From a virus: 45,633 nt of DNA. Below the pieces are notes generated by a model, which saw nothing but the letters and a program-made list of their open reading frames with translations, was not told the origin of the DNA and searched no databases. How positions within the stretch are numbered: position 1 is the first letter of the stretch; each line of letters starts with the position of its first letter. The stretch lies in the UHGV virus genome UHGV-0361696; one strand, given 5' to 3'. Shown piece after piece: positions 7,533-35,609 of this stretch. Position numbers and translations under genes: made by a program.

Positions 7533-7566
7533 GCGATTGTTTAGCTAAACACAGAGGATTCTAAAC

Positions 7567-8325: not shown

Positions 8326-8327
8326 AG

Positions 8328-8356: not shown

Positions 8357-8405
8357 AGCAATGAAGATGCGCGGATTATTTAAAATGGTACCGGCATCAG
8401 TATCA

Positions 8406-8862: not shown

Positions 8863-8865
8863 TTT

Positions 8866-8994: not shown

Positions 8995-9020
8995 TGTCAA
9001 ACCCTCAATCACCTTATGCT

Positions 9021-9062
9021 TTCAATCTACGTCAGTTTTGCTCCCCCTGTCAATGGTATAAT
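9021..9062 (+). promoter_or_regulatory. promoter with extended -10 (TGGTATAAT) plus upstream TTCAATCTACGTCA motif
   Basis: TTCAATCTACGTCA...CCTGTCAATGGTATAAT, about 30 nt upstream of the 9091 ATG. Confidence 0.45.
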
Positions 9063-9090
9063 TACGTCATTGTGAAAACAGGATTTAGAC

Positions 9091-14019: not shown

Positions 14020-14440
14020 CGATTTTGAGCGGCTGATGCTTGGCAAGCCATATGTCGACAGATGCTGTCACGTTGATGCAGTGGACTGCTGGGGTCTGGT
14101 GGTGCTGTTCTATCGCCTTTGCATGAATGTCAATGTTCATCACGATGATTCATATTCGAATGGTGGCGATTTTGTCACTTGCTTCAATGGGGAAGTATCA
14201 TTCTGGAAAGACACCGAACAGCCAAAAGTTGGCGATGTGGTGGTTGCCTATCGCGGGAGTCATCCGGTACATGTCGCGCTGTGGTGGGGTCGTGATAAAA
14301 TACTGCATGCGCGAGAGAAAACGGCAGTCAAGACAGACCGCCTTAAAACACTCGAAAAATTATCAACAAAATTAAGGTTCCTGACTTATGCCGGTTATTC
14401 ACATTCAGAAGATGCCAGGAGTTCCAAAAGAGACGGGTAA
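13961..14440 (+). CDS. tail tip assembly protein K-like (NlpC/P60 peptidase fold)
   Basis: DCWGLV (Cys) and HVALWWG (His) motifs typical of the NlpC/P60 gpK family. True start probably internal, near 14036. Confidence 0.55.
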
Positions 14441-16868
14441 TGTTCCTGCTGGCACTAATCTGTGGAGATGGCTGGAGAATTCCGGCCTTCCATCTGACAT
14501 CAGGATTGCGCTGAATGGCCGCATTTTTGGACCTGATGATGAATTATCGATATCGTTAAAGCAAAACGATATTGTTAACATTTACTGTCAGCCTCGCGGC
14601 GCCATTGGCGACCTTATCAGCACGATACTCAAGCCTGTAACTAAGGTTCTTTCTTTTCTGCTGCCAAAAGCATCAACGCCATCAACCAGCACTGGCGCGA
14701 CGGTTGAATCACCCAACAATAGCCTGAAATCGCAAACCAATATTGCGCGAAACGGAGAGGCAAGACCTGACAACTTCGGTCAGATAAGGGCATTCCCTGA
14801 CCTGATTCAGGAGTCACTTTTTGAATACATTGACGATCTGAAGTACGTCACTGAGTTCATGAACTTTGGCCTTGGGAAATACACCATTTCATCGGTTCGC
14901 TATGCGGAAACTAATCTTGGTTCTCTGCCAGGCGCCACTCATGTCATCTACAATCCAGGTGATGTGATCGGGCAAATCATTGAGCCTTACCAGTTCGACG
15001 GGCTTGATGGTCAGGAGGTTCCAGGGCTGAACGAGTCAGAGGACACCCCGATAGAGACAGCGACCACGACATCTGTTACCAGTGGCGATTATGCTGGCGG
15101 TCAGTTGTTAATAGTCATACCAAAAAACACTGATTTCGATTACTTCATGGGACTGTCTTTACCGCACTCTGTGTCATTAACAATAAATATCACCTACAAC
15201 TCCACATCCGGGCCAGTTACTGAAAATATTCAGCTTAGTGGCAACATCATTTCAGCTGAGGAAACTGAGACGGGAGTAATTCCTGATATTCAGTATTTCT
15301 ATAATTTTACCTTCAATAACCTGACCGGTGCAAATCTTGGCAACCTGACCGGCGCAACCATCAACGACACTTATTTCCAGATTGTGGATAATGAGGCGCT
15401 CGTTGTTGGCCCATATGTTGGAGCCGTGGAATCGACGCAGGTATGGGTTCATGTTCAGTCTGAACTTGGGCCTACCAGTGGCACGGCAGATTATCTGATC
15501 AAAGTATGGGCGGTTGATGATAATGGGGATGCCATTCCAGGAACCGAGGAGCAGCTCGCAGACAGTATTGACAACCCATTTAATCAGACAACAAAAACCT
15601 ATTATCGCACGTATAAATTAACTCCTGCTTATGGGCTGGCTAAGTATGCTATCAGCATTGAAAGGACAAACAACTCAAACTCTGGCAACCGCGTAACGTT
15701 GCAGGCGGCGCACGCTATCAACATCCGCGAGAATGTGGTTTATCCTGATGACACCCTTGTTAAAGTGACGGTGAAGGCCACGCTTCAGCCAACATCAGTT
15801 ACTGAGCGCAAATATAATGCGCTGATTACCCGCTGGACTATCGGATATAACAGAACAACCGGGACAGTCGACTATACGTTAACGCCATCAAGAAGTTTTG
15901 CAGATTCAGTGCTGCATAACTGGCTTATTACTGCTGGTCAGCCTGAAAGCACCATTGACGTGGGAAGGCTCTATGAAATAGCTGATGCGCTGCCTGACGC
16001 ACGTCTTGGGTACTTCGATTACACATTTGACGATGAGGATAAATCGATCGGTGAGCGAATTCAGACTATCTGTGATGCAGCGCGTGTAACCGTATTTTGG
16101 GATGATGGTGTTTTATCTTTTTCAAGAGATGAGCAAAAATCAACCCCTGAAACTGTGTTTAATACCAGAAACACGCAGGCTGATGGCTATAAAATGTCTT
16201 ATGACATGACTTTGCCGGGGTCATATGATGGCGTAAGCGTTCAGTACCGCGACCCAAACACCAACAAACAGGCTTACGTTTATTATAAAGTTGGCACTTC
16301 TGGTATAGAGCCTGGAGAACCAACTAAGCCGAAAAAATTCGACATGCTATACGTTCGAAATCTGTATCAGGCAACAGACAGAGCCATGCTTGAGTGCAAT
16401 CGTCTGATGTACTCACGCCGAGGGATGGAGATAAAGGCACTTGCTGATGGTGAGTGGGTGAACGTTGGCGATATGATTTCTGTTGTCGACATTTATGATT
16501 CTGTACAGCAGACAGGCGTTATCCGATCAAGGTCTGGAAACGTATTTACCACCAGTGAACAGCTTACGGCGGGAAGTGGCCTATTTGTGGTTATCACTGG
16601 CGCCAATGGGAATGTGTCAGAACGCCTGGCTTGCACCGTTACTGGATTGAATACATTCGAGTGCGCATTACCATCTGATTTCGAGTTAAACATTTTTGAC
16701 GGTGTTAATGTTCAGTCGGAATCAAGATATGCCATCTCTACAGAGATTGAACTTGATTCAACGTTATGGACAGTTAGCCAGAAAACTCCAGGTGCAGATG
16801 GCACAGTGTCTCTTACAGTAACTGAGTACAATGACGCCATGTACGCCTACACCAACCCTGTTGCGTGA
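14388..16868 (+). CDS. tail tip / host specificity protein: gpI-like N-terminus fused to a J-like central fibre protein
   Basis: 826 aa. The first 90 or so aa resemble the tail assembly protein I (ubiquitin-like) region. The rest is Thr/Asn-rich and beta-rich. Confidence 0.55.
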
Positions 16869-16906
16869 TACAATAGGGCAATTAATGATTATGGAGATTG
16901 CAGCTG

Positions 16907-19030
16907 ATGGCTACTACCCCAACTAATAAGCCAATCCCTTCTGAAGACCCGCGCGATCTGAAGTTTAACGCCGGAAAGGTTGATGAAGAGGTTAACGGAG
17001 GCGCTGATTACTACACCGACAGATTCGGCGTGCAGAGACTGACAAATACTGGTAGAAATAACCAGTTTCAGGATGCGCAAACTCAAAGGGAGTCTGATTT
17101 TCAGCAATTTCTCTTAAACTCTGGTTATCAGTTTTTAGGAGATTATGAAAATGGGCCTTATACAATTGCCGCTCGCAATCAGATTATTCGTTATCAGAAT
17201 GAGTTCTGGCGTTTAAATGCAGCTACTAATCCACCATATACAACAACTGGTGTTGATAACACCTCTTGGGCGGTAGACGTGACTCATCTTGTAAGCGTTG
17301 GCGATGCAAAATTAAGACAGGATTTAAGTTCAACTACTTTGCCTGGTTTATCATTAGTCGGTCTTTCTGGTAATGGTAATTTAAACCATCTGCTAGGCAA
17401 TCATACCTCTCCTGAGGCGTGGGGAGTGGTGCCAAATTCAGAAGCATCAGCTCATGCAAACTCTAGAAAGATGTTTGACATGTTTGAAAGTTTAAGATCG
17501 AAAGGCGGCGGTGTCGTATTCTTTACTCCTGGTAGAACATACTGGATTGACTTTATTCAGTTCGTACCAAGTAACGTTGTTATAATTGGCTACGGCGCTA
17601 CATTAAAGCAAATAAACCCTTTATCAATGTATGGACGCGGTGGTTTTGTGTTTGGTAGCAGTAGGGAATGGAACTATCAAAAAGCTAAAACGGCATATCT
17701 TGCAAACTCCTACCCTGCATCTGTATCTGATTCATCAATGCCTGAGTTGTCTTTAGGTTCATATTTAAGGGATAACCAATCATATTTACAGTGTGAAAGA
17801 TGTACTGTGTATGGTTTGCGTATGGAAACAAAATTTACAGATTCTACATATTGGGGTGGTTATGCATTTAATACAGTAAACGCGCAACACATCAGATTTT
17901 ACGATGTTAAAGGAAGTGGTTGGACACAGCTATTCAATTTCGGTAATGATAGTTCCGCATCATCACCATCTTGTGATGATGTATATGCATTCAACTCAAC
18001 AGTAGAAAGCGCAGATCTTGTTCGTTCTTACTATGCGATTGGTTTTATAGCCAACTCTACAAACTGTGGTTTTGATACAGCGGTTCTTCTAAAACCAATG
18101 ACAGTTGATAGCATTAATGGGTCTGGTGCAGCAACAAACTACACTGAAAACTGCGTAATCAGAAATATAAACATACCAGATTTAGGGTTAACTTCATCAT
18201 CTGAAGGTGTTTTATTAAATAACTCCAAAGGTTGTTTAATAGAAAATATTGATATCAGGAATTGTAAAAACGTAGTTAGTACATACTATACCGTCGGTTC
18301 ATACAATGACACTGCAAAACCTAATATTTTAAGGAATATTAGTGGTCAAGGCGTTAACATTATAGCAATCAGGTCTAAATATGCACACATTGAATCATTT
18401 GAAGGAGTAGGTACATACACGAATGAAGTTCAATTTGCAAACAACAATGCATCAGGCAATACCATAAATAAAAAACCAAAATCAATTGGTTTTGGTGGGA
18501 CTAACTTACAGTCATGGTTTTTAACAAAAAATACGGTAAAAGGATGGTCGCGAAAATATTTTTATATTCGGCCATCCGAAATTTTGTTGAACGATAAAGT
18601 AGACACTTTTTCATGGAATGAAAATAAACTTGTCGCAACAAAATCAGGAGTAAATCTTTACTTTATGTGGCGAGTTCCTGACGATATCAATGCAATTGAT
18701 GATATTCGCGCTTTTATTAGATTTAACACTGCCGTAGATCAAGATGCTTCTGTTGCTGGATCTACAGTAGAGGCAAGTTTGATACAAATGGTCGCTTTCG
18801 ATGGTAACATTGGTGAAACACCATATGTTGCTTTTTCAAACAGCAAGATTGCAACAGCGGGTGTAGAAGACACAACGGTAGTAACGAAAATGGGTAGCAA
18901 TGTACCAGGTTTGGTTTATATGGATGATACTACACATGGTTTATCCTATAGCTGGTATGTGCTGTTTAAAATGACAAATAATGTGAACAATAACTACATG
19001 AAAGAAATCAGAGTAGCGGGGTATAACTAA
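16907..19030 (+). CDS. tail fibre / receptor-binding protein with low-GC distal module
   Basis: About 708 aa. The N-terminal roughly 130 aa have genome-typical GC. The rest is AT-rich, Asn/Ser/Thr-rich and beta-structure-like. Confidence 0.6.
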   Translation: MATTPTNKPIPSEDPRDLKFNAGKVDEEVNGGADYYTDRFGVQRLTNTGRNNQFQDAQTQRESDFQQFLLNSGYQFLGDYENGPYTIAARNQIIRYQNEFWRLNAATNPPYTTTGVDNTSWAVDVTHLVSVGDAKLRQDLSSTTLPGLSLVGLSGNGNLNHLLGNHTSPEAWGVVPNSEASAHANSRKMFDMFESLRSKGGGVVFFTPGRTYWIDFIQFVPSNVVIIGYGATLKQINPLSMYGRGGFVFGSSREWNYQKAKTAYLANSYPASVSDSSMPELSLGSYLRDNQSYLQCERCTVYGLRMETKFTDSTYWGGYAFNTVNAQHIRFYDVKGSGWTQLFNFGNDSSASSPSCDDVYAFNSTVESADLVRSYYAIGFIANSTNCGFDTAVLLKPMTVDSINGSGAATNYTENCVIRNINIPDLGLTSSSEGVLLNNSKGCLIENIDIRNCKNVVSTYYTVGSYNDTAKPNILRNISGQGVNIIAIRSKYAHIESFEGVGTYTNEVQFANNNASGNTINKKPKSIGFGGTNLQSWFLTKNTVKGWSRKYFYIRPSEILLNDKVDTFSWNENKLVATKSGVNLYFMWRVPDDINAIDDIRAFIRFNTAVDQDASVAGSTVEASLIQMVAFDGNIGETPYVAFSNSKIATAGVEDTTVVTKMGSNVPGLVYMDDTTHGLSYSWYVLFKMTNNVNNNYMKEIRVAGYN

Positions 19031-19299
19031 TGACCGGTTCAGAATCAAGAAAAGCACAAGATCTCTTCTTTGGTATTATTGATTATTACGCTAATCTTTC
19101 AGGCACAGACATAACTGAAGATCAGTTGAAACAACGCGATGAAATAATAAAAAGTGGATCTATAGAATGTGATGATTCTTTAGATAGTGAAATCTTAGAT
19201 TTGCAAGATCAATTTCTTGCAAAAAAAGAAAGTAACATCATAAATAAAGATCAAATAGCGATAGTTGAAAAAGCACTATCGCTATTAAAAAAATCTTAA
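19030..19299 (+). CDS. hypothetical acidic protein (89 aa), possible fibre chaperone
   Basis: ATGA-coupled to the fibre gene. Shares the same AT-rich composition. Confidence 0.4.
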   Translation: MTGSESRKAQDLFFGIIDYYANLSGTDITEDQLKQRDEIIKSGSIECDDSLDSEILDLQDQFLAKKESNIINKDQIAIVEKALSLLKKS

Positions 19300-19315
19300 T
19301 TATCATACTGGTAGT

Positions 19316-19350
19316 AACGTGCATCTCATTTGATGCACGTTATATTTATT
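19316..19350. terminator. bidirectional terminator between convergent fibre and ssb genes
   Basis: AACGTGCATC...GATGCACGTT inverted repeat followed by T-rich tracts. Confidence 0.6.
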
Positions 19351-19358
19351 TAAATCAC

Positions 19359-19862
19359 TCAGAATGGGATATCATCATCAAAATCCATCGGCGGTTCGTT
19401 TGACGGTTGTTTTGACGTGTTTGATGGTTGCTGAGGTTTACCCCATCCTGATTGCTGATTACTTCCTGACTTTTGCCGCTGCTGTGACTGTTGGTTTCCA
19501 TTATCACTTGATTTACCACCAATCATTTGCATAACGCCGTTCATAGGCTGCAAGACGATTTCAGTAGTGTATTTTTCAACACCGCTTTGATCTGTCCATT
19601 TGCGAGTACGTAATTTTCCTTCTACATACACCTGAGAGCCTTTGCGCAGGTATTCGCCAGCCACCTCTGCCAGCTTTCCGAAGATAACCACGCGATGCCA
19701 TTCTGTCTGCTCTTTCTTTTCCCCTGTTGATTTATCGTTCCACTGCTCTGATGTTGCCAGAGACAGATTGCACACAGCGCCGCCAGAAGGCATATATTTA
19801 ACTTCCGGGTCTTGTCCGAGAGTGCCCAAAATGATTACTTTGTTGATTCCTCGAGATGCCAT
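19359..19862 (-). CDS. ssb: single-stranded DNA-binding protein
   Basis: [13 protein letters not shown]...TEWHRVV...RTRKWTD... plus the acidic tail [11 protein letters not shown]. Very close to E. coli SSB. Confidence 0.9.
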
Positions 19863-19871
19863 AATTTACCC

Positions 19872-20912
19872 TTAAAAGTTTTCGATGTTCTGTTGAGATG
19901 TTGATGGCTTCTCTTCGTTTGCAGATGACGTAGGCGCATCTGCTTTCTGGAGTTTTGCCGGGTTGAAATCGTCCTGCGGTGTGATAGTTACCGCTGCTGG
20001 CGATTCATCATTAATGAATGACTCAATGCGCTCATACTCTTCTGCTGATGCCTTCAATGTAGGCCAGATTGCGCGAATTTTTGCTTTCACTGAATCAGGC
20101 AAGTTAACTGCCTCGGCAGTTAGCGCAGCAACTCCTTTTGACGCCGTCATTTGAAGTTTAGAGCGCCAGTGCTCAAACTCTTCGTCGACCTTGACACCTG
20201 AATCCACCCATTTAATTAAACCTCGCCCATGAGCTTCGCCTAAGTATCCTTCGTGTACACTATCACGGCCTGAATCAAAGAAAATTGGGCGCAATTCTTC
20301 TGGTAGCTTGGTAAATTCCTGAATTTTTCCATTATCATACATCATCATGCTTACTGTCATTTCAAACATAAAATCTTTTTCGCATACAGCATGCAATCCG
20401 AGGGATTCAGGTTTCTTGGGGTTTTTAAAGCTCGTTTTCTCTCTGGCGCGTAAACATACAATGATATGCATATTGCTCTGCAAAAGAGCGCTCATGAATT
20501 TTTTATGTTCAGACTTAGCTCGCTTCCAGTCTGCCATTGCCTTACCCTGCAATAGTGGTTGCTCTGCAATATCATTGCATCCTCCTTCACCTTCCCATTC
20601 GTGCGATCCTGAATCAATAACCAGAACCTTAACGCCTGCCTCCTGAAATTCCTCGATAGCCTGGCGGTAACGAGCTGGACTAAATGGCGCATACAAATCA
20701 GCGTGCATAAATGGACCGTCAAGCTCTCCAGAATAAAGCCTGCCTCGACCATTTTCAGAGTCAAGAAATCCAATTTCTTCTGGTTTATTAACCATACCTC
20801 GCGCCATCTTTAGTGCCGTAAGTGTCTTTCCGCTACCAGACTGCCCTGAAATGCCAATCACTACGCGAGAACCTGAGCGCTCTGCTGGCTTAATGTTTAA
20901 AATACCCATCAC
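19872..20912 (-). CDS. RecA-like/AAA ATPase (Sak4-like recombination ATPase candidate)
   Basis: Walker A GISGQSGSGKT near the N-terminus. Sits between the ssb and exonuclease genes. Confidence 0.5.
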   Translation of the reverse strand: MMGILNIKPAERSGSRVVIGISGQSGSGKTLTALKMARGMVNKPEEIGFLDSENGRGRLYSGELDGPFMHADLYAPFSPARYRQAIEEFQEAGVKVLVIDSGSHEWEGEGGCNDIAEQPLLQGKAMADWKRAKSEHKKFMSALLQSNMHIIVCLRAREKTSFKNPKKPESLGLHAVCEKDFMFEMTVSMMMYDNGKIQEFTKLPEELRPIFFDSGRDSVHEGYLGEAHGRGLIKWVDSGVKVDEEFEHWRSKLQMTASKGVAALTAEAVNLPDSVKAKIRAIWPTLKASAEEYERIESFINDESPAAVTITPQDDFNPAKLQKADAPTSSANEEKPSTSQQNIENF

Positions 20913-20932
20913 TTCACCTCATTTACTATAAA

Positions 20933-21892
20933 TTACAGGTTAAATTGCTTTTTGAACCATTCTGGCGTTTCCATTTCGATGACCGGATTACCCATTGAGT
21001 AACCTGGCCATGAATTGGCTTTTTTGCATGCCTTATAGATTTCCATCGCGCTGCGCAGCTGAATACGACCAATTAGTAACTGCTCATCCGTCAGGCGAAT
21101 CAGCGCAGGGATGAATGGCGATTTCTTCTCCTGCACCAGGAGGTTTACAGATCGAGGTGCATGCCCATAAGCCTCGACAAACATGTCGTGCTGCATTGCC
21201 ATCTTCATAAAGTACCCGAGCCTCGCTGCATGGCGGAAAAACTCATCAGGCTTGGCGCTCACCGCTGTTTTGTAGTCGATGATGTCGCCACCGCGAGTAA
21301 GGCAGTCAAATCGCACCTTTGATGGTTCGCCAAGCAAATCACCGAGAATTGACACCTCGGAATAAGCACCAGAAAGAAGGCTGCTGTAATAGCTGTTTGC
21401 ATGGATTACGGCGCGCATCTGCATGATGGCGTCATAGTCATCACCTTCCAGCATTGATTTACCAGTAGCGGCCTTCTCTGCTTCTTCACGTATAACATCG
21501 TAAATCTGCGCTGTATCGCCAGTGGCCTGAATAATTTTAATCACTTCGGCTTTAGTCTTACCTGAAAGCCCTTTAATGCCGCGCTCTTTCGCCCATGAGT
21601 TCATGTCGGAAGCTGTCACCAGCACCGTGCGATTGCCATCTTTGTCTTTTGGAAAATCTTCGACAACTGGCATGCGGGCATATTCTGCTTCAAAGCGCTC
21701 AGGCTCAAGCAGAGCGGTATGGCTACCAGTACCAAATATCATAGCCTTTGACTGCTCATCTTCTTCGTCTTTATAGCGCCATGCTGCCGGGCAGCGGTCT
21801 AATATATTCCAGAGACCAGACCCATTAATATGCTCTGTATCAGCATGATATTCCTGATTGCTTAATTCGTTATTTAAATAAACTTTCATCAT
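20933..21892 (-). CDS. PD-(D/E)XK family exonuclease (Cas4/RecB-like)
   Basis: GDIIDYKT...motif of PD-(D/E)XK nucleases. Start chosen at MMKVY with a GGAGAGTG RBS. Confidence 0.55.
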   Translation of the reverse strand: MMKVYLNNELSNQEYHADTEHINGSGLWNILDRCPAAWRYKDEEDEQSKAMIFGTGSHTALLEPERFEAEYARMPVVEDFPKDKDGNRTVLVTASDMNSWAKERGIKGLSGKTKAEVIKIIQATGDTAQIYDVIREEAEKAATGKSMLEGDDYDAIMQMRAVIHANSYYSSLLSGAYSEVSILGDLLGEPSKVRFDCLTRGGDIIDYKTAVSAKPDEFFRHAARLGYFMKMAMQHDMFVEAYGHAPRSVNLLVQEKKSPFIPALIRLTDEQLLIGRIQLRSAMEIYKACKKANSWPGYSMGNPVIEMETPEWFKKQFNL

Positions 21893-22518
21893 CACTCTCC
21901 GTGGTTGCAAAAATTTTTGTGCATTTTTTCTCTAAAATTCATAACAGCAACCTTTGCTTTCTCAATATCATGGAACAACCCAATGCTGTATCTTCTACCG
22001 CTTACATCGCAGTATGCCTGCCATTTCTTGCATTGCTTATGCCAGTAAACGCCTTTAACTCCAGATGTATTGTTTTTTGGCTTTTTCGCGTTGTACTGGT
22101 TCTGCATGTTTGTTGCAATTCTTAAGTTACTAATCCGGTTGTCATCACGAACACCATTGATATGATCGATCTGGTGTTCAGGCCAGAAACCGTAATGCAT
22201 GAGCCATGCAAGACGATGCGCATAATATCTCGTATTGTTTATGCTTATTTCTATATATCCGTTATGCTTTTTCCTTCCAGCTACACTTCCTTTCTTGACT
22301 CCTCCACCAGTCTTATTTCTGAAGAAAAGTCCTGTTTCATGGTTGTAAGTTAAGTTATGCAAAACGACATCAAGAGGTATTCTTTTTGTTTTTCCTGTGG
22401 TTTTTGACTCTACATCTCCCAGAGCAGAATTTTGCTTTTGCAGTTCCGATGAACTCATTTCCGCAAACCTCGCATTTCTTAACGGTGATAGCCATTTCTT
22501 ACTCTCTATTGTAATCAT
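21892..22518 (-). CDS. HNH homing endonuclease with AP2 DNA-binding domain (paralogue 1 of 3)
   Basis: HRLAWLMHYGFWPEHQIDHINGVRDDNRISNLR (HNH_3 motif) plus NTSGVKGVYWHKQCKKWQA (AP2). AT-rich. The start is ambiguous, either 22518 or 22458. Confidence 0.8.
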   Translation of the reverse strand: MITIESKKWLSPLRNARFAEMSSSELQKQNSALGDVESKTTGKTKRIPLDVVLHNLTYNHETGLFFRNKTGGGVKKGSVAGRKKHNGYIEISINNTRYYAHRLAWLMHYGFWPEHQIDHINGVRDDNRISNLRIATNMQNQYNAKKPKNNTSGVKGVYWHKQCKKWQAYCDVSGRRYSIGLFHDIEKAKVAVMNFREKMHKNFCNHGE

Positions 22519-22563
22519 TCAGCGTTACATTGCAAGTAACTTTTACCTGTTACTAACAATGCA

Positions 22564-22989
22564 TCAATCCACATCCAAAGGCAAGCCAAAGTAGAAAAGA
22601 GTCGCTCTTTTTATCTCCTCAAGACCATAAGCAATGGCGCCAAAGTGACCATCTGCAATGGCGCACTCAAGAACCTCAATCTGCGATGGTGATACTTTTG
22701 ATTTTGTCTTATCACGCCTCTTCAGCTCAATCAGGCCGCATTTATGATTAATGCCGTGAGTTAGTATCACATTGTCGCTTACTCCGCTCCTGACGCCCAT
22801 TTTGCGGCGTTTCTCGACGAATTGAGGGCCGCTCTTTGTTCCAGTTTCGTTAGGCACATGAAACCACAGGACTTCAGGAAATCTGTATTGCATCCACATA
22901 CCATAGGCCATCTGGTCAGATTCCTCCCTTGGACACTCCCCGCGATAACCGCTATCAAATACCCATATTCCACTATCAAGCTGCTTCAA
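22564..22989 (-). CDS. VRR-NUC domain nuclease
   Basis: 141 aa with VRR-NUC-like HVPNE...G...ELK...K motifs. Adjacent to the helicase, as in T1/T5-like phages. Confidence 0.55.
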   Translation of the reverse strand: MKQLDSGIWVFDSGYRGECPREESDQMAYGMWMQYRFPEVLWFHVPNETGTKSGPQFVEKRRKMGVRSGVSDNVILTHGINHKCGLIELKRRDKTKSKVSPSQIEVLECAIADGHFGAIAYGLEEIKRATLFYFGLPLDVD

Positions 22990-24934
22990 TTTGTTCTCCT
23001 ATGAAATCCTTGCGGTGGATGATATCTCGGCCTTTATCGTTAAAACGATGCGTAATGCGTTTAGGCGCGCGGATTAAACCGGCGTAATGCATGAAAGTCT
23101 TCGCATCATGACAGTCCATCATTTTCTTCAGCATGGACTTATCTTCAAGATGAGGAAGCAGAGCCTTCATTTTAAACATATCGCGCAGATGCTTTGGCTT
23201 GCCTCCGAACGGATAAAACACCTCATTTGCCCAGCCGGTCTTGCCATCAGCTTTTACCACCAGGTAACGATAAAGAACCCCCTCAGCGTCTTTGGTCAAC
23301 TCGACTTTAAAATCTTGTACATCTGTCCATTCTTTATCGGTATAAGCACGCTCATTAAGCGCCGCATTAGGGTCGCGCAAAACGTGATCGCATTGACGGC
23401 AATAACGAGCTGTCGGATCGTTCTTTGTTCCACATCCATCATCAAAAATGCGGATGCCGTGCTTGTCGAAACCACAGCGAATGAAGCTGAAAAACTCTTC
23501 GCATCGTCCATCTGGAGACGTTGAGTCTTTACCGATGCAGCGCCGTGCATATGGGCTGTTCATCGTCTGGCATTTAGGGCATGGAACTTGCTCTCCGCTG
23601 CGTTTGGCGCGCTGTGCTTCTGCTTCCTCAAGAATAGGGTCTTCGTACAGACCGCCAAGCTCAAACATGGTTCCGGTGAAGTCAAGGCAAAGATGGTTTT
23701 CTTTCACCAGACCTGCGGCAATCTGGTCTGGCTTCAATAATCGCATTGGTCGGCCAAGTAACTGCGTCAGAAGAGTCAGGGACATGATTTTTCTCAGGAT
23801 GACAGACGTGTCCCAATATGGGATGTTGACGCCAGTCGTCAGGCAACCGATTTGCAGCGTGTATTTTTTGCGCCCGGTTGCCGCATCTTTCAGAGCTTTC
23901 CGTCTGGCTTTCTGCCCCATATCCTCGGTAACAATGGAATAACTGCCTTCTGGTAAATATTTTGCAGCCTCCTTGCAATGTTTTTTACCTGCGCAGGTAA
24001 TGAGTACACCAAGTCTGTCGCGCGTAAGCTCCATGACTTTGAGCATTATTTTTTGCGTCAATGTACCCTGCTTGAGGATTTCTTCCTGCATCTCTTTTAG
24101 CTGGCTATCAGTGAAGTCCTGCACTCCGTCAACGTCACTACTGGCAAACTCATGCAGATCGTATTGCAAGTCCTCGATATCCTGCCCGCCAAAGATGGTA
24201 GGGACAAGAAACCCAAGATCGACAAGGTATTTAGTGCTGATGTTGACGATTTCATGTTTCCAGTAAGCCCCTTTTATCGACTCAACGCCGCGAAATGGGC
24301 TGCCGGTGTAGCCAATGACAATCACCTCATGCCCGTACTTGGATTTGCAGCGCCGGTTAAGTTCATTCATGATGACACCGTACTGCGTCTCTGGCTGATC
24401 TGATATTATGTCCTGCCAGTTAACCTGGTGACATTCATCGACAAGGATGTAGCGAGGGGTAAAGTCCGAAAGCAAAGATTTTGTCACTGTGCCATCGTCT
24501 GCCGTCTTATCAAAAAGACCATTTATTATTGTGCCCTCTGTTCCCGCGATAAGCGGATAGGCATAAGCCTTACGCCCAAGTGAAGCGCTAAACAAAGAGT
24601 TTTTTACGCTCAGGTTCCAAAGCTCCTCAGCATCCTGCTCAATAATTTCGCCTTGTCTTGCGATGACAAGCCCCTCCCACCCCATATCCTGAAACCGACG
24701 GGCAATCATGGCTATCATGATGGTCTTACCGGCGCCAACTGATGCGGTAACATAACTTGGTTTAGGTTCTCTACCAAACTTGCGGATAACCTCCGCTGTC
24801 TTTTCATACACTAGCCACTGATATGGGCGAGGTTCAATTTCCCCGGTATGGATGCTGGCACGCAGCTTATCCATATCCAGCTCAGCAATCATTGCATCAA
24901 TTTTTTGCACTTCATCCACCTTTGTGTTGCTCAA
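22976..24934 (-). CDS. SF2 (DEAD/DEAH-like) DNA helicase with C-terminal zinc ribbons, TTG start
   Basis: Motif I SVGAGKT and motif II VDECHQV. C-terminal CPKC...C and CRQC clusters. The start codon is TTG at 24934-24932. Confidence 0.7.
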   Translation of the reverse strand: MSNTKVDEVQKIDAMIAELDMDKLRASIHTGEIEPRPYQWLVYEKTAEVIRKFGREPKPSYVTASVGAGKTIMIAMIARRFQDMGWEGLVIARQGEIIEQDAEELWNLSVKNSLFSASLGRKAYAYPLIAGTEGTIINGLFDKTADDGTVTKSLLSDFTPRYILVDECHQVNWQDIISDQPETQYGVIMNELNRRCKSKYGHEVIVIGYTGSPFRGVESIKGAYWKHEIVNISTKYLVDLGFLVPTIFGGQDIEDLQYDLHEFASSDVDGVQDFTDSQLKEMQEEILKQGTLTQKIMLKVMELTRDRLGVLITCAGKKHCKEAAKYLPEGSYSIVTEDMGQKARRKALKDAATGRKKYTLQIGCLTTGVNIPYWDTSVILRKIMSLTLLTQLLGRPMRLLKPDQIAAGLVKENHLCLDFTGTMFELGGLYEDPILEEAEAQRAKRSGEQVPCPKCQTMNSPYARRCIGKDSTSPDGRCEEFFSFIRCGFDKHGIRIFDDGCGTKNDPTARYCRQCDHVLRDPNAALNERAYTDKEWTDVQDFKVELTKDAEGVLYRYLVVKADGKTGWANEVFYPFGGKPKHLRDMFKMKALLPHLEDKSMLKKMMDCHDAKTFMHYAGLIRAPKRITHRFNDKGRDIIHRKDFIGEQIEAA

Positions 24935-24984
24935 TCTACGTCACAATAGTAGACTGAATCTACGGCAATAATCAAGGTTAAATT

Positions 24985-25878
24985 ATGCGATACGACTGGA
25001 AGGATATAGAGCCTTTAATGATAGGGAATTGGGAGGCTGCACTACTGTCAATAGTCAACATAGACAGGAAGATTTTTTCTGGAAAACATCAGCCATGCCC
25101 TCATTGCATGGGGGTTGACCGGTTTCGTTGGGATAATCACTTCGAAACAAAAGGCGATGGCGGAGCAATCTGCAATCAGTGCGGTTCCGGCAGCGGAATC
25201 ACCTGGCTAATGAAGCTGTCAGGAATGACGTTTCCAGAGTCAATGGAGGCACTGGCCGGATTTCTTAACATGCACCCGCGCGAAAAACTTGAGGCGATTA
25301 GAAAGCAGCTCCCGAAGGTCAACCATGCTTCTGACTACCTGACAGAGGCAGAAGTGGCGGCAATCATGGAAAAAGCAGGAGGCGACACCATAACCGGCAA
25401 AACCGGTGAACTGGTGGCGATACCGCTCTATATGGCTGGAACCATGACGCCATGCAATGTGGCATTCATTGCTGACGATGAAAGTGTGTCATTTCGCGCT
25501 GGCTTTAGCCATGAGTACACTCGCGGAAGACTTACGCGCGGCGCAGTGACACCCATCGGCGATAAGACTGAATGGACATATCTGGTTGCGGATTACTTCG
25601 ATGCCTGGCGAGCACACCGGCTTACTGGTGCTCATGTCTGGTGTTGCTGGTCGCCGGAAAATATGTGGGAAGTTGTGCGCAATGTGAGCGATGCACATCG
25701 AAATAAACTGCGCTGCATCATTAATAATAATTTCTATGAGGTATGCGCCGCCGAGAACGCAGCTCTTCCGATACTGATTACTGATGATGGTCAGGATATC
25801 CGTTACAGCGGAGCCATCAGAAAAAGGCTGTATAAACCAGAAGAGCTATTTGAAGCACTAAAAAATAAACCCTCCTGA
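24985..25878 (+). CDS. primase-like protein with P4/T7-type zinc ribbon
   Basis: CPHCMGVDRFRWD...GGAICNQCG matches the primase zinc-ribbon pattern. Encoded on the plus strand inside the minus-strand replication block. Confidence 0.5.
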   Translation: MRYDWKDIEPLMIGNWEAALLSIVNIDRKIFSGKHQPCPHCMGVDRFRWDNHFETKGDGGAICNQCGSGSGITWLMKLSGMTFPESMEALAGFLNMHPREKLEAIRKQLPKVNHASDYLTEAEVAAIMEKAGGDTITGKTGELVAIPLYMAGTMTPCNVAFIADDESVSFRAGFSHEYTRGRLTRGAVTPIGDKTEWTYLVADYFDAWRAHRLTGAHVWCCWSPENMWEVVRNVSDAHRNKLRCIINNNFYEVCAAENAALPILITDDGQDIRYSGAIRKRLYKPEELFEALKNKPS

Positions 25879-30900: not shown

Positions 30901-31307
30901 AACCCTACATCATCCGCAGGCTTATTGCTGTAGCGTGCGTTGCATTCTGGATTGTTGTTGCATTAGCCGCCTACTTTATCGTGAGGTGATTCATGCTGTG
31001 GAGCGACATTCAGGCTGCATGCGAAGAGGCTGATTTTCTTTATGAGGATACCGGAAAGCATCATGCCGTCATTCAGGTTGGCAGTATGATGATGGTGGTT
31101 GAGCATAACAGCATGCTTCGGCATATGTACTCAACGACGAGGTATCAGTGATGCCGCAAAAATCAAAGCAGGAGGTGTGGCAGAAGGCTCGGCTCGAAGG
31201 TGTTGACCACTTCATATCAGCAATAGCAAAAGCCTTCCCTGATGCTATTGAGGTGGTTCACGTTAAATCCCCACGCAATGATTTGTGGTGCAGGAGCGGT
31301 AAGTGTG

Positions 31308-31793
31308 ATGAAAAGAATAGACTGGAATGAGCTGTTTGAATACGACAACGGAAATCTGATATGGCGGGAGGATACTGGCCGCAAGGCAAGAAAAGGTGAG
31401 GTTGCAGGTCACTCAGGGACAAAAGGATATACGTCGATTTGGTGCTATGGACGAAAATACTTTGCGCATAGAATTATATGGGAAATGCATAATGGCCCTA
31501 TAACTGGCGGGCTGGAGATTGACCATATAAACCATAACCCTGGAGATAACAGGATTGAAAATCTCAGACTGACAAATAGGGGAGGGAATCTAAAAAACAA
31601 ATCTAAGTACTCCAGCAATAGTAGCGGAGTAACTGGCGTACACTGGAGGAAGGATAAGCGAAAGTGGCAAGCAAAAATAAGGGTTAACAAGAAGTTCATA
31701 CATCTTGGATATTTCAACGACATACTTGACGCGGAGCTGGCAAGAAAGAAAGCAGAAGAAGAGTATGGGTTTCACGATAATCATGGTGTATAA
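31308..31793 (+). CDS. HNH-AP2 homing endonuclease (paralogue 2 of 3)
   Basis: AHRIIWEMHNGPITGGLEIDHINHNPGDNRIENLR plus SGVTGVHWRKDKRKWQAKI. AT-rich. Overlaps the 3' end of the upstream 60-aa ORF. Followed by a terminator. Confidence 0.8.
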   Translation: MKRIDWNELFEYDNGNLIWREDTGRKARKGEVAGHSGTKGYTSIWCYGRKYFAHRIIWEMHNGPITGGLEIDHINHNPGDNRIENLRLTNRGGNLKNKSKYSSNSSGVTGVHWRKDKRKWQAKIRVNKKFIHLGYFNDILDAELARKKAEEEYGFHDNHGV

Positions 31794-31874: not shown

Positions 31875-32351
31875 ATGTCCTATGTGAGTTACTCAAAGGA
31901 CACATATAAAATGGCAAATCCTAACCCTAAGCACAAATTTTCATCCAGCAATCAGCCTCCACCAAGAGGAAAAAGCTACAGAACAGTGCTTCTTGAAGCA
32001 TTACGAGCTGCAAATACACCGATGAATGAGATTGAATTCGTCACGTACTACATCAACAAGGCGATGACATGCGAAGACGCTCAGGCTACCGGAATGCTGC
32101 GTGAGATATTCCTGCGACTGAACCCAATTCCAAAGCCTGTAGCTCCCCCTGTTGAGTTTGATTTCCCTGCTGACGGTACGCCTGTGCAGAAGATGGATGC
32201 GATTATCAAGGGCGTCTCTACTGGCGTTGTTCCAGCCGATATTGGCAAGATGATGGCGGACATTCTGAAGGCAGGGCTTGATATCGAAGAGGTAACAGAG
32301 CTTGCGGCGCGCCTTGAGCGACTGGAGAAATTACTGGAGCAGCAACAGTAA
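31875..32351 (+). CDS. terminase small subunit (putative; true start likely 31911)
   Basis: Immediately upstream of terL. C-terminal coiled-coil LAARLERLEKLLEQQQ. An extended -10 promoter TGGTAAGAT at 31866-31874 implies the start is the downstream ATG. Confidence 0.45.
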   Translation: MSYVSYSKDTYKMANPNPKHKFSSSNQPPPRGKSYRTVLLEALRAANTPMNEIEFVTYYINKAMTCEDAQATGMLREIFLRLNPIPKPVAPPVEFDFPADGTPVQKMDAIIKGVSTGVVPADIGKMMADILKAGLDIEEVTELAARLERLEKLLEQQQ

Positions 32352-32450
32352 CTGATTTATAATAATCAATGCGGCTAGGGGGCACCCGAAAAGCGACTCA
32401 TCACCGCCTGCCGCATTCACTTCAATGATGCCCTGATGAGGAATCTATAT

Positions 32451-34970
32451 ATGGCACGCAAAAGACTCTCAGCACCAGCAATTGAAAAACTCGAAGAGAT
32501 TATTGGCGATGGCGTGATTGATGCGCCTGAATCTGCGGTGTTCGGTGTTGTTAATACAGATAAGCAGATTGTTCGCAAACTAAAAATGACGCAAAGCGGA
32601 GTTGATGACGTTAGCGACTCTGATATTGGCGTTGATCACCTGATACCAGAAAAGCTGGAAAAGCTACTTTACCCCAAGCGTAATAAGATTGTGTTTGGCG
32701 GGCGCGGATGCTTAGCCATCGGCACGATGGTGAGGATGTTTGATGGTAGCCTAAAACGCGTAGAGGATATCGTTGTTGGCGATAAGGTTATGGGTCCAGA
32801 CAGTAAACCACGAAATGTTTTAAACATCTGTCGGGGGTTTGATGACATGTATACGGTTCATCAAAAATATGCTGATGACTACACTGTCAACTCAAGTCAC
32901 ATACTGTCATTACGAAAGATTCCATCGGCTATCAGTGACGAGACAAAAACACCGGATGGTAAAAGAATTTATCGTTATTACCCGAATGAACCTGAAATAC
33001 TGAATATTGGTGTTTCAGAATATTTGTCGCGCGCAACTTCCAAAAAGTTCCGCCATGTCTTTAAAGGGTGGCGAACAGGATGGGATTTTAATGACCAAAG
33101 CGTCCCAGTTGACCCGTACTTTCTTGGTTTATGGTTAGGTGATGGTTCATCTCGTGGTGTTGAAGTGTGCACGCCTGATCCAGAGATAGTTGACTACATT
33201 CACAACGTGGCAAGCCAATACGGGATGCAGGTAAAGGTTCGCGACGATGATAGATGCCCTGTCTATGCGATAACTAATGGTCGAGCTGCTGGCATGGGGA
33301 AGAACACCAACCCGTTACTAACTAAAATGCAGCAGCTTGGGGTGATTAATAATAAACACATACCTGACTGCTATATCAAAAACAGCAGAGAGGTAAGACT
33401 TCAGATTCTGGCTGGGCTATTGGATACTGATTCGCATTATGACCAGAAAAAGAAAAGCTATTCTTTCACATCAATAAATAAAGAAATGGCCTTCTCTTTG
33501 ATGGATGTGGCAAGATCGCTTGGCTTCAAGTCAAGCATAATCAAAAAGACTGATGTCACCTTTGAATATAAAGGTGAGAAAAGAATATACGAAAAGGACG
33601 TATGGGAGGTGTTCGTTAGCGGGGACATTCACACAATCCCATGCCGAGTAAAAAGAAAGATAGCAGAGAAAACCAAGTCAACACGAGGAAAGATGACTGA
33701 GGTGTCATTGTCTTATGCCGGGCATGGTGAATACGCTGGGTTCACTCTTGATGGCGATCATCTTTTCTTGCTTGCTGATGGCACGGTTACACACAACAGC
33801 GGAAAAACAAGGACAGTAACAACGATACTTACGGAGCGTGCACGCTTTAAGCCTGACAGGATAGCTTGTTTTCGTGAGATTCAGCAGTCCATTGAAGATA
33901 GCTCATATCAGGAACTGAAGGACGAAATTGATCGCAAGGGAGAAACGAAAGAGTTTCGCGTCATCAATAATGAGATAACCCACAAAGGCACGAAGGCAAA
34001 ATTCAGATTTAAGGGGCTGTATCGCAACCAGACGACCGTTAAAGGCTTCGCTGGCATTACAGTAGCTTGGGTCGAGGAGGCGGAAAACGTCAGCCAGACA
34101 AGCTGGGAAATCCTCACCCCAACAGTCCGCGCTGAAGGGTCAGAGATATGGGTGACTTTCAACCCAAATAAAGAGCATGACCCGACGTGGAAAATATGGG
34201 TTGAGCCTTTTTATAATAAATTGCGCGAAAATGGCGGCATCTATGAGGATGATGAAAACCTGATTATCGAGTGTAATTACTCAGACAATCCGTGGTTCTG
34301 GGATACTCCCCTACCCAGCCAAATGCAACGCATGAAAGAGACCGACTTCGACCGCTATCAATGGGTGTGGGGCGGTCGCTTTAACAAGCGTAATGATGAG
34401 CAGGTATTTGGCGGTAAGTGGCGCGTTGCTGATTTCGAGGTTAAGCCGGAATGGCATGGGCCTTACTTTGGCATCGACTTTGGATTCTCGCAGGACGCAA
34501 CGGCGATGGTTGAGGTTTACATTGAGAAACTTCCTGATGACCGCCGCAACCTTTACGTCGCGCGCGAATACGGCCGTGTAGGCCTTGAGATTACCGACAC
34601 ACCTACAGCGATGGAGCAATCATTCCCACTCTCCAGGAAGGCAAGATGGTATGGGGACTGCTCTCGGCCAGAAACAATCAGTCACATCAAACGCGCAGGA
34701 TTTGATATCCATCCATGCAATAAGTGGCCCGGGAGCGTGGAGGAGGGTGTAACCTGGCTCAGGGGTTGCGACAGCATCATCATTCATGACCGCTGCACAC
34801 AGACTCAGGAAGAGTTCACTATGTACAGTTACAAGGTGGACAAGCTGACGGGTAACGTGCTCACAAATATTGTGGATGCGTGGAACCACTTCATTGACGC
34901 AATAAGATATGCATGCAACGATCACATCGTACAGCGTGGCTCTGGATGGATTAGAAGGAGCAGGAGATGA
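32451..34970 (+). CDS. terL: terminase large subunit interrupted by an intein
   Basis: Extein Walker A reconstitutes as GGRG|SGKT once residues C92-N454 are removed. Terminase nuclease-like C-terminal half. RBS GAGG 9 nt upstream of the ATG at 32451. Confidence 0.85.
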   Translation: MARKRLSAPAIEKLEEIIGDGVIDAPESAVFGVVNTDKQIVRKLKMTQSGVDDVSDSDIGVDHLIPEKLEKLLYPKRNKIVFGGRGCLAIGTMVRMFDGSLKRVEDIVVGDKVMGPDSKPRNVLNICRGFDDMYTVHQKYADDYTVNSSHILSLRKIPSAISDETKTPDGKRIYRYYPNEPEILNIGVSEYLSRATSKKFRHVFKGWRTGWDFNDQSVPVDPYFLGLWLGDGSSRGVEVCTPDPEIVDYIHNVASQYGMQVKVRDDDRCPVYAITNGRAAGMGKNTNPLLTKMQQLGVINNKHIPDCYIKNSREVRLQILAGLLDTDSHYDQKKKSYSFTSINKEMAFSLMDVARSLGFKSSIIKKTDVTFEYKGEKRIYEKDVWEVFVSGDIHTIPCRVKRKIAEKTKSTRGKMTEVSLSYAGHGEYAGFTLDGDHLFLLADGTVTHNSGKTRTVTTILTERARFKPDRIACFREIQQSIEDSSYQELKDEIDRKGETKEFRVINNEITHKGTKAKFRFKGLYRNQTTVKGFAGITVAWVEEAENVSQTSWEILTPTVRAEGSEIWVTFNPNKEHDPTWKIWVEPFYNKLRENGGIYEDDENLIIECNYSDNPWFWDTPLPSQMQRMKETDFDRYQWVWGGRFNKRNDEQVFGGKWRVADFEVKPEWHGPYFGIDFGFSQDATAMVEVYIEKLPDDRRNLYVAREYGRVGLEITDTPTAMEQSFPLSRKARWYGDCSRPETISHIKRAGFDIHPCNKWPGSVEEGVTWLRGCDSIIIHDRCTQTQEEFTMYSYKVDKLTGNVLTNIVDAWNHFIDAIRYACNDHIVQRGSGWIRRSRR
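32709..33797 (+). mobile_element. intein (363 aa) with LAGLIDADG homing endonuclease domain, inserted in the terL P-loop
   Basis: Begins with Cys (CLAIGTMV), ends with THN followed by Ser. Two LAGLIDADG motifs (LGLWLGDG and ILAGLLDTDS). The interior is AT-rich. Confidence 0.8.
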
Positions 34971-34990
34971 GATGAGACCCCAGCAGGGGT

Positions 34991-35281
34991 CTATTTATAA
35001 AGCCAGCAATGAATCCCCGCGTTGCGCATGGCGGCATAAATCACGTCATTAGACACGACCGCAATCGCCACCCTTTCTGCATCAATCTGCTGGTGCGAAG
35101 CCATGATGTCATCATAGAATACATCGTTAGCATGCAGCCATTCATACGCATGCTTTGCCCTCATGATAAGCACGTCATGCCCGGCAGAGTAGAGCGACTT
35201 AGCCAGCGCAACGTTGCCAGCAATGGCATTACCCTCAGCATCGCGCAGCACGCCATCAAGCTCGAAAATGACACATTTCAT
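34991..35281 (-). CDS. hypothetical protein with HAD-like motif I (96 aa), minus-strand moron
   Basis: N-terminal FELDGVL. Own promoter TTGACG-17-TAGATT at 35308-35336 on the minus strand. Confidence 0.4.
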   Translation of the reverse strand: MKCVIFELDGVLRDAEGNAIAGNVALAKSLYSAGHDVLIMRAKHAYEWLHANDVFYDDIMASHQQIDAERVAIAVVSNDVIYAAMRNAGIHCWLYK

Positions 35282-35307
35282 AAGATTTCTCCGAGAGGTT
35301 TCATTTT

Positions 35308-35337
35308 AATCTACGCCATGCTAGAATCTACGTCAAG
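35308..35337. promoter_or_regulatory. divergent promoter pair built on two copies of the AATCTACG(Y)CA motif
   Basis: Plus strand has AATCTACGCCA followed by TGCTAGAAT (extended -10). Minus strand has TTGACG-17-TAGATT. Confidence 0.45.
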
Positions 35338-35369
35338 GCGCATTGACATAACTACATCACCGGGGCATC

Positions 35370-35609
35370 ATGAAGGCATACTCATCTTTTTCGTGGGAGC
35401 AGAAGGAAAAAATATATTCACTCGCAAGAGCTGGTGTATCAGATGCAGCTCTGTGCGAAAGGTACGATGTGGATGAGGCTATCCTGCTGCGCATGTATGA
35501 TGAAGTGCTGTGTGAGTTGCAGCGGCGCCGTGGTTATAGTGGCCTGAAGACGATTAATGATTTCTTTCGGAATGTTGAGCTAAATAACGATGAGGGTGGT
35601 GATTTATGA
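35370..35609 (+). CDS. hypothetical protein (79 aa)
   Basis: ORF track. Confidence 0.4.
   Translation: MKAYSSFSWEQKEKIYSLARAGVSDAALCERYDVDEAILLRMYDEVLCELQRRRGYSGLKTINDFFRNVELNNDEGGDL

What the first reader, a model, noticed from the sequence alone, without database searches (positions are those of the whole stretch)
32709..33797. Intein with LAGLIDADG homing endonuclease splitting the terminase Walker A motif
Removing C92-N454 rejoins GGRG and SGKT into a canonical P-loop (GGRGSGKT). The 363-aa insert has Cys1, a TxxH-like block (SSH), two LAGLIDADG motifs and a terminal HN followed by Ser. The interior is AT-rich. Terminase function therefore depends on protein splicing. The intein carries an active-looking homing endonuclease.
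Basis: partly seen in the sequence, partly recalled or inferred. Interest (0 to 1): 0.55.

Follow-up and report, generated by a model that had tools for sequence, protein, structure and literature searches.

The report
Intein splitting a phage terminase P-loop
The DNA-packaging motor gene of this phage is interrupted, inside its ATP-binding loop, by a self-splicing protein element (an intein) that carries its own DNA-cutting enzyme; this is real and looks recently mobile, but it is a well-known kind of selfish element.

Summary
Confirmed. The terL ORF (32436/32451..34970, +) carries an in-frame 363-aa insert at exactly 32709..33797. Intein-less orthologues (KP591P1, MK54) lack precisely these residues. 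Removing them rejoins GGRG|SGKT.

The insert passes the Pfam cut-offs for Hom_end_hint, Hom_end and LAGLIDADG_3. It matches yeast PI-SceI by sequence (E 1.6e-20) and by predicted fold (pLDDT 93.6, TM 0.74). It has Cys1, N61-x-x-H64, His362-Asn363 and Ser+1, plus the endonuclease residues D145, K216 and D241.

It belongs to a large intein family (35-44% identity) found in the P-loops of many unrelated NTPases.

There is a clear footprint of homing. All intein-bearing phages share about 32300..33900 at 95-100% identity, whatever their flanks look like. Against Segz_1, dS is 0.07 (N-extein), 0.20 (intein) and 1.71 (C-extein). dN/dS of the endonuclease domain is about 0.11-0.15.

Caveats:
- S242 replaces a Gly that is nearly invariant in the family.
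- No cognate empty site was found.
- Splicing and cleavage are inferred, not shown.

Terminase P-loop inteins are already well documented. This is a new, unannotated member of a known kind, so interest is low to moderate.

The parts
32451..34970 (+). terL precursor gene (839 aa from ATG 32451; the longest ORF starts at ATG 32436). PBSX/Terminase_3-type large terminase interrupted by an intein.
   Evidence: Terminase_3, Terminase_3C, TIGR01547 at 131.1 bits (cut-off 105.05). Start site.
32451..32708 (+). N-extein (86 aa), ending in the first half of the Walker A motif, GGRG (32697..32708).
32709..33797 (+). Intein, 363 aa, class-1 type, with an embedded double-motif LAGLIDADG homing endonuclease (PI-SceI-like).
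32709..33098 (+). N-terminal Hint (splicing) part, aa 1-130. Block A is CLAIGTMVRMFDG (32709..32747). Block B is N61-S-S-H64, within 32871..32912.
   Evidence: C1 and H64 are invariant in 92/92 relatives.
33099..33668 (+). LAGLIDADG endonuclease domain, aa 131-320. Motif 1 is at 33117..33146 (D145). K216 lies in 33348..33365. Motif 2 is at 33405..33434 (D241, with an atypical S242).
   Evidence: (D145/K216/D241 align with PI-SceI residues 218/301/326).
33669..33797 (+). C-terminal Hint part, aa 321-363. Block F is YAGFTLDGDHLFLLAD (33732..33779). Block G is GTVTHN (33780..33797).
33798..34970 (+). C-extein (390 aa plus stop). It begins with the nucleophile Ser+1 and the second half of Walker A, SGKT (33798..33809), followed by the rest of the ATPase domain and the RNaseH-like nuclease domain.
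32300..33900 (.). Approximate tract shared at 95-100% by all intein-bearing phages regardless of flank divergence: the intein, about 360-420 nt on the 5' side and about 100 nt on the 3' side. Interpreted as a co-conversion tract of homing.

Best explanation
This is a class-1 intein with an embedded PI-SceI-type LAGLIDADG homing endonuclease. It sits in the Walker A (P-loop) motif of a PBSX/Terminase_3-family large terminase, between Gly and Ser of GGRG|SGKT.

Inferred protein-level mechanism. The gene is translated as an 839-aa precursor whose ATP-binding loop is split, so it cannot work as a packaging ATPase. The intein then excises itself by the standard four-step route: an N-S acyl shift at Cys1 assisted by block-B His64, transesterification to Ser+1, cyclisation of Asn363 assisted by His362, then an O-N shift. 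The products are a 476-aa TerL with an intact GGRGSGKT loop and a free 363-aa endonuclease.

Inferred DNA-level mechanism. In a co-infection, the free intein cuts an intein-less terL allele at or near the insertion site. Repair from the intein-bearing genome copies in the intein together with flanking extein sequence.

Shown here: the precise in-frame insertion, the full set of family-defining residues, the fold, and the evolutionary footprint of recent lateral spread with co-converted flanks.

Inferred only: actual splicing, actual cleavage, and the target sequence.
For: - Exact indel relative to intein-less orthologues.
- Pfam Hom_end_hint, Hom_end and LAGLIDADG_3 all score above their cut-offs. 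TIGR01443 is above its cut-off on the full ORF.
- PI-SceI matches by phmmer at E 1.6e-20, covering both the splicing and the endonuclease parts.
- The AF2 model has pLDDT 93.6 and pTM 0.90. Its best PDB match is PI-SceI, E 2e-27, TM 0.74, followed by archaeal VMA inteins, PI-PfuI, Prp8 inteins and I-DmoI.
- Among 92 complete relatives, C1, H64, D145 and N363 are invariant, and N61, K216, D241 and H362 are nearly so. The window has all of them.
- The spliced product scores better on Terminase_3 and regains the P-loop region.
- Homing footprint: the tract about 32300-33900 is 95-100% identical in pIS4-A, KpV2811, Segz_1 and ST46. Meanwhile the upstream gene falls to about 45-67% (KpV2811, ST46) and the C-extein falls to 58-80% (Segz_1, ST46). 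Intein-less KP591P1 is mostly 85-100% identical on both sides but only 38-77% from -360 to +60 of the site.
- dS against Segz_1 is 0.07 (N-extein), 0.20 (intein) and 1.71 (C-extein). dN/dS of the endonuclease domain is 0.11-0.15 against Segz_1 and ST46.
- A metagenomic phage (P0187, L011) carries the same intein at the same site. Its intein is 79% identical, while its exteins are only 44% and 66% identical.
Against: - No experiment: splicing and cleavage are inferred from sequence.
- S242 replaces the terminal Gly of LAGLIDADG motif 2 (Gly in 91/92 relatives), and I256 replaces a Lys found in 81/92. Both are fixed in all terL copies. They might weaken or retune the nuclease.
- No intein-less allele with the cognate flanks was found. 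The N-extein haplotype occurs only in the 11 intein-bearing records of the phage collection. IMG/VR hits to the core junction sequence are all in unrelated genes.
- The nearest intein-less alleles differ at 11 of the 24 nt around the site, so present-day targets are unknown.
- The long shared 5' tract could partly reflect ordinary module exchange at the gene boundary rather than co-conversion.
Confidence: 0.93

Rival explanations
1. The intein still splices, but its endonuclease is decaying or already inactive. It would then be a vertically inherited passenger late in the homing cycle, and the shared tract would reflect past events only.
For: S242 (Gly in 91/92 relatives) and I256 (Lys in 81/92) deviate at nearly invariant endonuclease positions. 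No cognate empty allele is seen, so the intein looks fixed on its N-extein haplotype.
Against: D145, K216 and D241 are retained. dN/dS of the endonuclease domain is 0.11-0.15 across copies that differ at dS of about 0.17-0.20. The domain is full length and modelled with high confidence. The S/A substitution at position 242 is shared with the 79%-identical P0187 copy, so it is old and compatible with the element's persistence across lineages.
Confidence: 0.25
2. The insert is a non-splicing domain or a degenerate intein retained inside TerL, or the gene is a pseudogene.
For: None beyond the lack of experimental data.
Against: All splicing residues are intact. The insert splits the Walker A loop of an essential ATPase. 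Seven isolated, plaque-forming phages carry the same arrangement with an intact reading frame. There is purifying selection on both Hint halves.
Confidence: 0.02
3. The apparent insertion is an assembly artefact, or is really a group I intron or a free-standing endonuclease gene read through by chance.
For: Mildly lower GC than its surroundings.
Against: It is a continuous 844-codon ORF with no stop. The junctions are identical in independently sequenced genomes from different laboratories and hosts. Hint-domain blocks sit at both ends.
Confidence: 0.01

Closest known systems
PI-SceI, the Saccharomyces cerevisiae VMA1 intein (PDB 1VDE, 1LWS, 1DFA; Pfam Hom_end_hint/Hom_end)
   Same: It is the best match by sequence (E 1.6e-20; the N-terminal 55 residues align without gaps with many identities) and by fold (TM 0.74). 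It has the same architecture: a Hint domain split by a double-LAGLIDADG nuclease. The window's D145, K216 and D241 align with PI-SceI residues 218, 301 and 326. Both have Cys1 and a terminal His-Asn.
   Different: This intein is 363 aa against 454 aa; the region between block B and the nuclease is about 75 residues shorter. Its +1 residue is Ser, not Cys. Its host is a phage terminase, not the V-ATPase A subunit. Its insertion site is inside Walker A, whereas the yeast site reads VG|CGER (PDB 9cop_A). My recollection that VMA1 is split in its P-loop was wrong.
Terminase large-subunit inteins of mycobacteriophages and other actinophages (Kelley et al. 2016, PMC5050341; bioRxiv 10.1101/2025.01.02.630785)
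   Same: They are inteins in the TerL ATPase domain, and the commonest sites lie in the Walker A P-loop. Those inteins were shown to splice, and two of them cut intein-less partner alleles. Splicing is argued to be required before the active site and the pentamer can form (PMC5050341).
   Different: Their hosts are Terminase_1 and Terminase_6 families in actinophages. The 'classic' site there is between Lys and Thr (GK|T). Here the host is a Terminase_3/PBSX TerL of an enterobacterial-type siphophage, and the site is two residues upstream (G|SGKT).
The P-loop intein family seen: helicase inteins of Klebsiella Jedunavirus and Salmonella Jerseyvirus phages, plus metagenomic DnaB, thymidine kinase, PhoH, ABC ATPase, RecA, dTMP kinase and Terminase_3 inteins
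   Same: They are 35-44% identical over the whole 363 aa, with the same conserved residues. All are inserted in Walker A loops. A minority use the same G|[ST]GK[ST] position, for example PhoH-like ...GLWG|SGKT.
   Different: Most, including the other Terminase_3 hosts (P0006, P0020, P0025, P0029) and the phage helicases, sit at GK|[ST]. This terL lineage has S or A instead of G at the end of LAGLIDADG motif 2.
PBSX (XtmB)-type terminase inteins listed by Novikova et al. 2016 (PMC4760082, Table 3)
   Same: Inteins are already catalogued in the COG1783/PBSX terminase family, and P-loop insertion is described as a general intein preference.
   Different: Those five are in Bacteroidetes, Firmicutes and Synergistetes prophages. 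The paper text I read does not give their insertion sites, so identity of site was not tested.

Membership tests
Intein (Hint-fold protein-splicing element, class 1) | In-frame insertion in a host protein that is absent, with precise boundaries, from orthologues | tested here: met
   The gap in KP591P1 and MK54 TerL coincides exactly with C92..N454. Most TerL homologues are 459-489 aa.
Intein (Hint-fold protein-splicing element, class 1) | N-terminal nucleophile (Cys/Ser) at position 1 and block B (T/N)xxH | tested here: met
   C1 is invariant in 92/92 relatives. The window has N61-S-S-H64, with H64 in 92/92 and N61 in 85/92.
Intein (Hint-fold protein-splicing element, class 1) | C-terminal His-Asn followed by a Ser/Thr/Cys +1 extein residue | tested here: met
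   The junction reads GTVTHN|S. TIGR01443 scores 16.2 bits against a cut-off of 15.6 on the full ORF, but 14.9 (below the cut-off) on the insert alone without Ser+1.
Intein (Hint-fold protein-splicing element, class 1) | Hint fold | tested here: met
   Pfam Hom_end_hint scores 77.1 bits against a cut-off of 32.1. The AF2 model has pLDDT 93.6. Foldseek finds PI-SceI at E 2e-27 and Prp8 mini-inteins with target-normalised TM 0.80-0.89.
Intein (Hint-fold protein-splicing element, class 1) | Autocatalytic protein splicing that yields ligated exteins | not testable with these tools
   Needs expression with SDS-PAGE or mass spectrometry. It is inferred from the intact catalytic residues and from an essential host gene in viable phages.
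LAGLIDADG homing endonuclease (double-motif, PI-SceI type) | Two LAGLIDADG helices, each carrying a catalytic acidic residue | tested here: met
   The motifs are YFLGLWLGD145G and ILAGLLDTD241S. Hom_end scores 41.3 and LAGLIDADG_3 scores 33.3, both above their cut-offs.
LAGLIDADG homing endonuclease (double-motif, PI-SceI type) | Full conservation of the motif, including the terminal Gly of motif 2 and the other nearly invariant family positions | tested here: not met
   S242 stands where 91/92 relatives have Gly. I256 stands where 81/92 have Lys. The functional consequence is unknown.
LAGLIDADG homing endonuclease (double-motif, PI-SceI type) | Site-specific cleavage of the intein-less allele | not testable with these tools
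   Indirect support only: co-conversion-like tracts, the dS contrast, and dN/dS of about 0.11-0.15 in the nuclease domain.
PBSX/Terminase_3 large terminase (host protein) | N-terminal ATPase with Walker A, plus a C-terminal RNaseH-like nuclease | tested here: met
   On the spliced product, Terminase_3 scores 126.9 bits and Terminase_3C scores 53.3 bits. On the precursor, TIGR01547 scores 131.1 against a cut-off of 105.05. GGRGSGKT is the commonest P-loop among 120 homologues, at 67/120.

The most novel reading that the evidence does not exclude
The intein may do more than act as a passenger. Each homing event would drag about 360-420 nt of 5' flank with it: the intergenic region plus the whole 86-aa TerL N-terminus. 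The intein would then drive modular replacement of the terminase N-terminal region across phage genera that infect Klebsiella and Salmonella. This would explain why that N-extein haplotype is found only together with the intein. A further, weaker possibility is that splicing is conditional and times the activation of the packaging ATPase.
Probability: 0.12. Interest if true: 0.5.

Novelty: new member of a known kind. Interest (0 to 1): 0.27.

Why it matters
For annotation: the public records of the nearest relatives (pIS4-A, pYD38-A, KpV2811, Segz_1, ST44/46/65) label this 839-aa product simply 'terminase'. TerL phylogenies or size comparisons for these therapeutic-candidate Klebsiella and Salmonella phages will be distorted unless the intein is removed.

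For biology: it is a clean natural example of a P-loop-targeting intein family moving between phage genera with visible co-conversion tracts. It also offers a compact (363 aa) PI-SceI-like intein/endonuclease that could be tested for splicing and for a new cleavage specificity.

It does not open a new question. Terminase P-loop inteins, their splicing and their homing activity have been described before.

Tried and rejected
1. I recalled that the yeast VMA1 intein occupies the same Walker A position (GAFG|CGKT). The alignment to PDB 9cop_A shows its flanks are VG|C...HN|CGER, so the claim was dropped.

2. I considered that the nearest intein-less alleles escape cleavage through non-canonical P-loops (GGRGSSKT, GGRASTKT, GGRGSAKS). 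In the wider family, intein-less GGRGSGKT is the commonest form (67/120). Loop sequence alone therefore does not separate intein-bearing from intein-less alleles, and the idea remains untested speculation.

3. A multiple nucleotide alignment of intein-bearing and intein-less terL genes misplaced the intein-less N-exteins. It was replaced by pairwise global alignments and a codon-register comparison.

4. I searched for an empty cognate homing site. A blastn search with the spliced junction found none in the phage collection. A degenerate junction pattern in IMG/VR gave 32 uninterrupted GGRG|SGKT sites, all in unrelated genes (at most 36 of 60 nt identical).

5. Literature searches for this specific intein (phage names; 'Klebsiella phage' with intein and terminase) found no description of it.

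6. The protein database search with the intein did not return the full-length 839-aa precursor of close relatives, only fragments (P0001, P0010). Close copies were taken from the phage GenBank collection instead.

Full report
**The observation**

The window carries a single long ORF at 32436..34970 (+), 844 codons. Cys92 begins at nt 32709 and Asn454 ends at nt 33797.

ATG 32451 is preceded by GAGGA about 8 nt upstream. The orthologues in GenBank are annotated from MARKRL. The real precursor is therefore probably 839 aa, with the Cys at residue 87.

The insert is only mildly AT-rich. It is 43.2% GC against 47.5% for the window, which is the 10th percentile of same-length windows. The lowest 300-nt window is 37% GC, in the endonuclease part.

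**What it is**

Pfam gives the following on the insert alone:
- Hom_end_hint: 77.1 bits (cut-off 32.1)
- Hom_end: 41.3 bits (cut-off 21.1)
- LAGLIDADG_3: 33.3 bits (cut-off 22.5)

The flanks give Terminase_3 and Terminase_3C. NCBIfam names the host a PBSX-family terminase large subunit (TIGR01547, 131.1 bits against 105.05). It also detects the intein C-terminal splicing block on the full ORF (TIGR01443, 16.2 against 15.6).

After in-silico splicing, the Terminase_3 score rises from 110.1 to 126.9 bits. The match extends from profile positions 12-201 to 3-201, so it regains the P-loop.

Against solved structures, the best sequence match is yeast PI-SceI (E 1.6e-20). The alignment covers the first 55 residues and residues 133-363.

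An AlphaFold2 model built on 72 relatives has mean pLDDT 93.6 and pTM 0.90. Its best PDB matches, in order, are PI-SceI (E 2e-27, TM 0.74), archaeal VMA inteins, PI-PfuI, Prp8 mini-inteins and the LAGLIDADG enzyme I-DmoI.

**Orthologues without the insert**

The TerL proteins of Klebsiella phages KP591P1 (476 aa) and MK54 (474 aa) align end to end with the window protein. The only gap equals C92..N454.

**Catalytic residues**

I extracted 91 complete relatives from a protein search and aligned them with the window intein.
- Invariant among these positions: C1, H64, D145 and N363.
- Nearly invariant: N61 (85/92), K216 (91/92), D241 (90/92) and H362 (89/92).

The window has all of them, followed by Ser+1. 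D145, K216 and D241 align with PI-SceI residues 218, 301 and 326. From my own knowledge of the PI-SceI literature, these are its two catalytic aspartates and an active-site lysine.

Two departures stand out. S242 stands where 91/92 relatives have the last Gly of LAGLIDADG motif 2. I256 stands where 81/92 have Lys. Both are fixed in every terL copy examined. The more distant copy, P0187, has Ala at 242.

**The family and the insertion site**

Relatives at 35-44% identity sit in many host proteins: thymidine kinase, DnaB, PhoH, ABC ATPases, RecA, dTMP kinase, AAA proteins, other Terminase_3 proteins, and the helicases of Klebsiella Jedunavirus and Salmonella Jerseyvirus phages.

In nearly all of them the intein interrupts a Walker A loop.
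- Most sit at GK|[ST]. This group includes the phage helicases and the other Terminase_3 hosts.
- A minority sit at G|[ST]GK[ST], the position used here.

P-loop preference and terminase hosts are established in the literature (PMC4760082). In mycobacteriophage TerL the commonest sites are in Walker A, and those inteins splice and cut partner alleles (PMC5050341).

I had recalled that yeast VMA1 is split at the same P-loop position. The alignment to PDB 9cop_A shows VG|C...HN|CGER instead, so that parallel is withdrawn.

**Evidence of mobility**

The intein occurs at 95-99% amino-acid identity in 11 records from 7 phages:
- pIS4-A and pYD38-A (Roufvirus)
- KpV2811
- Segz_1 (Segzyvirus)
- ST44, ST46 and ST65 (Macdonaldcampvirus)

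Pairwise sliding identity shows that all of them share about 32300..33900 with the window at 95-100%. Outside that tract the picture changes:
- The upstream gene drops to about 45-67% in KpV2811 and ST46.
- The C-extein decays to 58-80% in Segz_1 and ST46.

The intein-less KP591P1 shows the reverse pattern. It is mostly 85-100% identical on both sides, but only 38-77% from -360 to +60 of the insertion point.

Nei-Gojobori estimates against Segz_1:

| Segment | dS |
|---|---|
| N-extein | 0.07 |
| Intein | 0.20 |
| C-extein | 1.71 |

dN/dS is 0.11-0.15 in the endonuclease domain, measured against Segz_1 and ST46.

A metagenomic phage contig (P0187, L011) has the same intein at the same site. 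Its intein is 79% identical, while its exteins are 44% and 66% identical.

Together these results indicate lateral spread of the intein with co-converted flanks, and selection maintaining the nuclease.

**Limits**

- The N-extein haplotype is found only with the intein.
- No empty cognate allele appeared in the phage collection, or in IMG/VR with a degenerate junction pattern.
- The nearest intein-less alleles differ at 11 of 24 nt around the site, including a different Ser codon family (AGC against TCA). Current targets are therefore unknown.
- The long 5' tract may partly be ordinary module exchange at the gene boundary.
- Splicing and cleavage were not, and cannot be, tested here.

**Verdict**

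This is an unannotated but typical member of a well-described class: a P-loop intein with a LAGLIDADG homing endonuclease in a phage large terminase. It has a clear evolutionary footprint of homing. Its value lies mainly in annotation and as a tidy example, so interest is low to moderate.

Noticed in passing
window 31242..31793 (+): A 183-aa free-standing HNH endonuclease gene (Pfam HNH_3, 2.1e-18; PHROG 99, 4e-65) lies two genes upstream of terL. It is cleanly absent from pIS4-A, KpV2811 and KP591P1, which show a gap of about 530 nt at 31269-31800. It is present at 90-100% identity in MK54 and VR6602, where it is annotated as a homing endonuclease. This is a second, independent mobile endonuclease in the terminase neighbourhood.
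   Followed up: partly
L007 1956..2468 (Klebsiella phage KpnS_VR6602): This intein-less relative has yet another HNH-motif ORF inserted directly 5' of terL, overlapping its start. The terL 5' boundary therefore looks like a hotspot for different selfish nucleases.
   Followed up: no
window 1..25000 versus 32000..35400: The window is mosaic. The terL region is 99.8% identical to Aeromonas phage pIS4-A and Vibrio phage pYD38-A. The first 24 kb is only about 92.6% identical to pIS4-A and about equally close to several Klebsiella phages. The region 30489-30908 is much lower against pIS4-A, at about 23-65%.
   Followed up: partly
window 31875..32351 (+): The 158-aa ORF immediately upstream of terL sits in the position of a small terminase. 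It has no Pfam hit and matches only PHROG 9747 (unknown function). Intein-bearing phages carry two very different versions of it, about 45-67% nt identical.
   Followed up: partly
window 34991..35281 (-): A small ORF on the opposite strand just after terL matches PHROG 415 (polynucleotide kinase, 2e-12) over only part of the profile. RefSeq annotates the equivalent gene in relatives as polynucleotide kinase.
   Followed up: no
L009 1..1309 (Salmonella phage PIZ SAE-01E2): The Jerseyvirus genome that carries the related helicase P-loop intein is also annotated with an intein-containing DNA polymerase precursor next door. Multiple inteins per small phage genome occur in this group.
   Followed up: no
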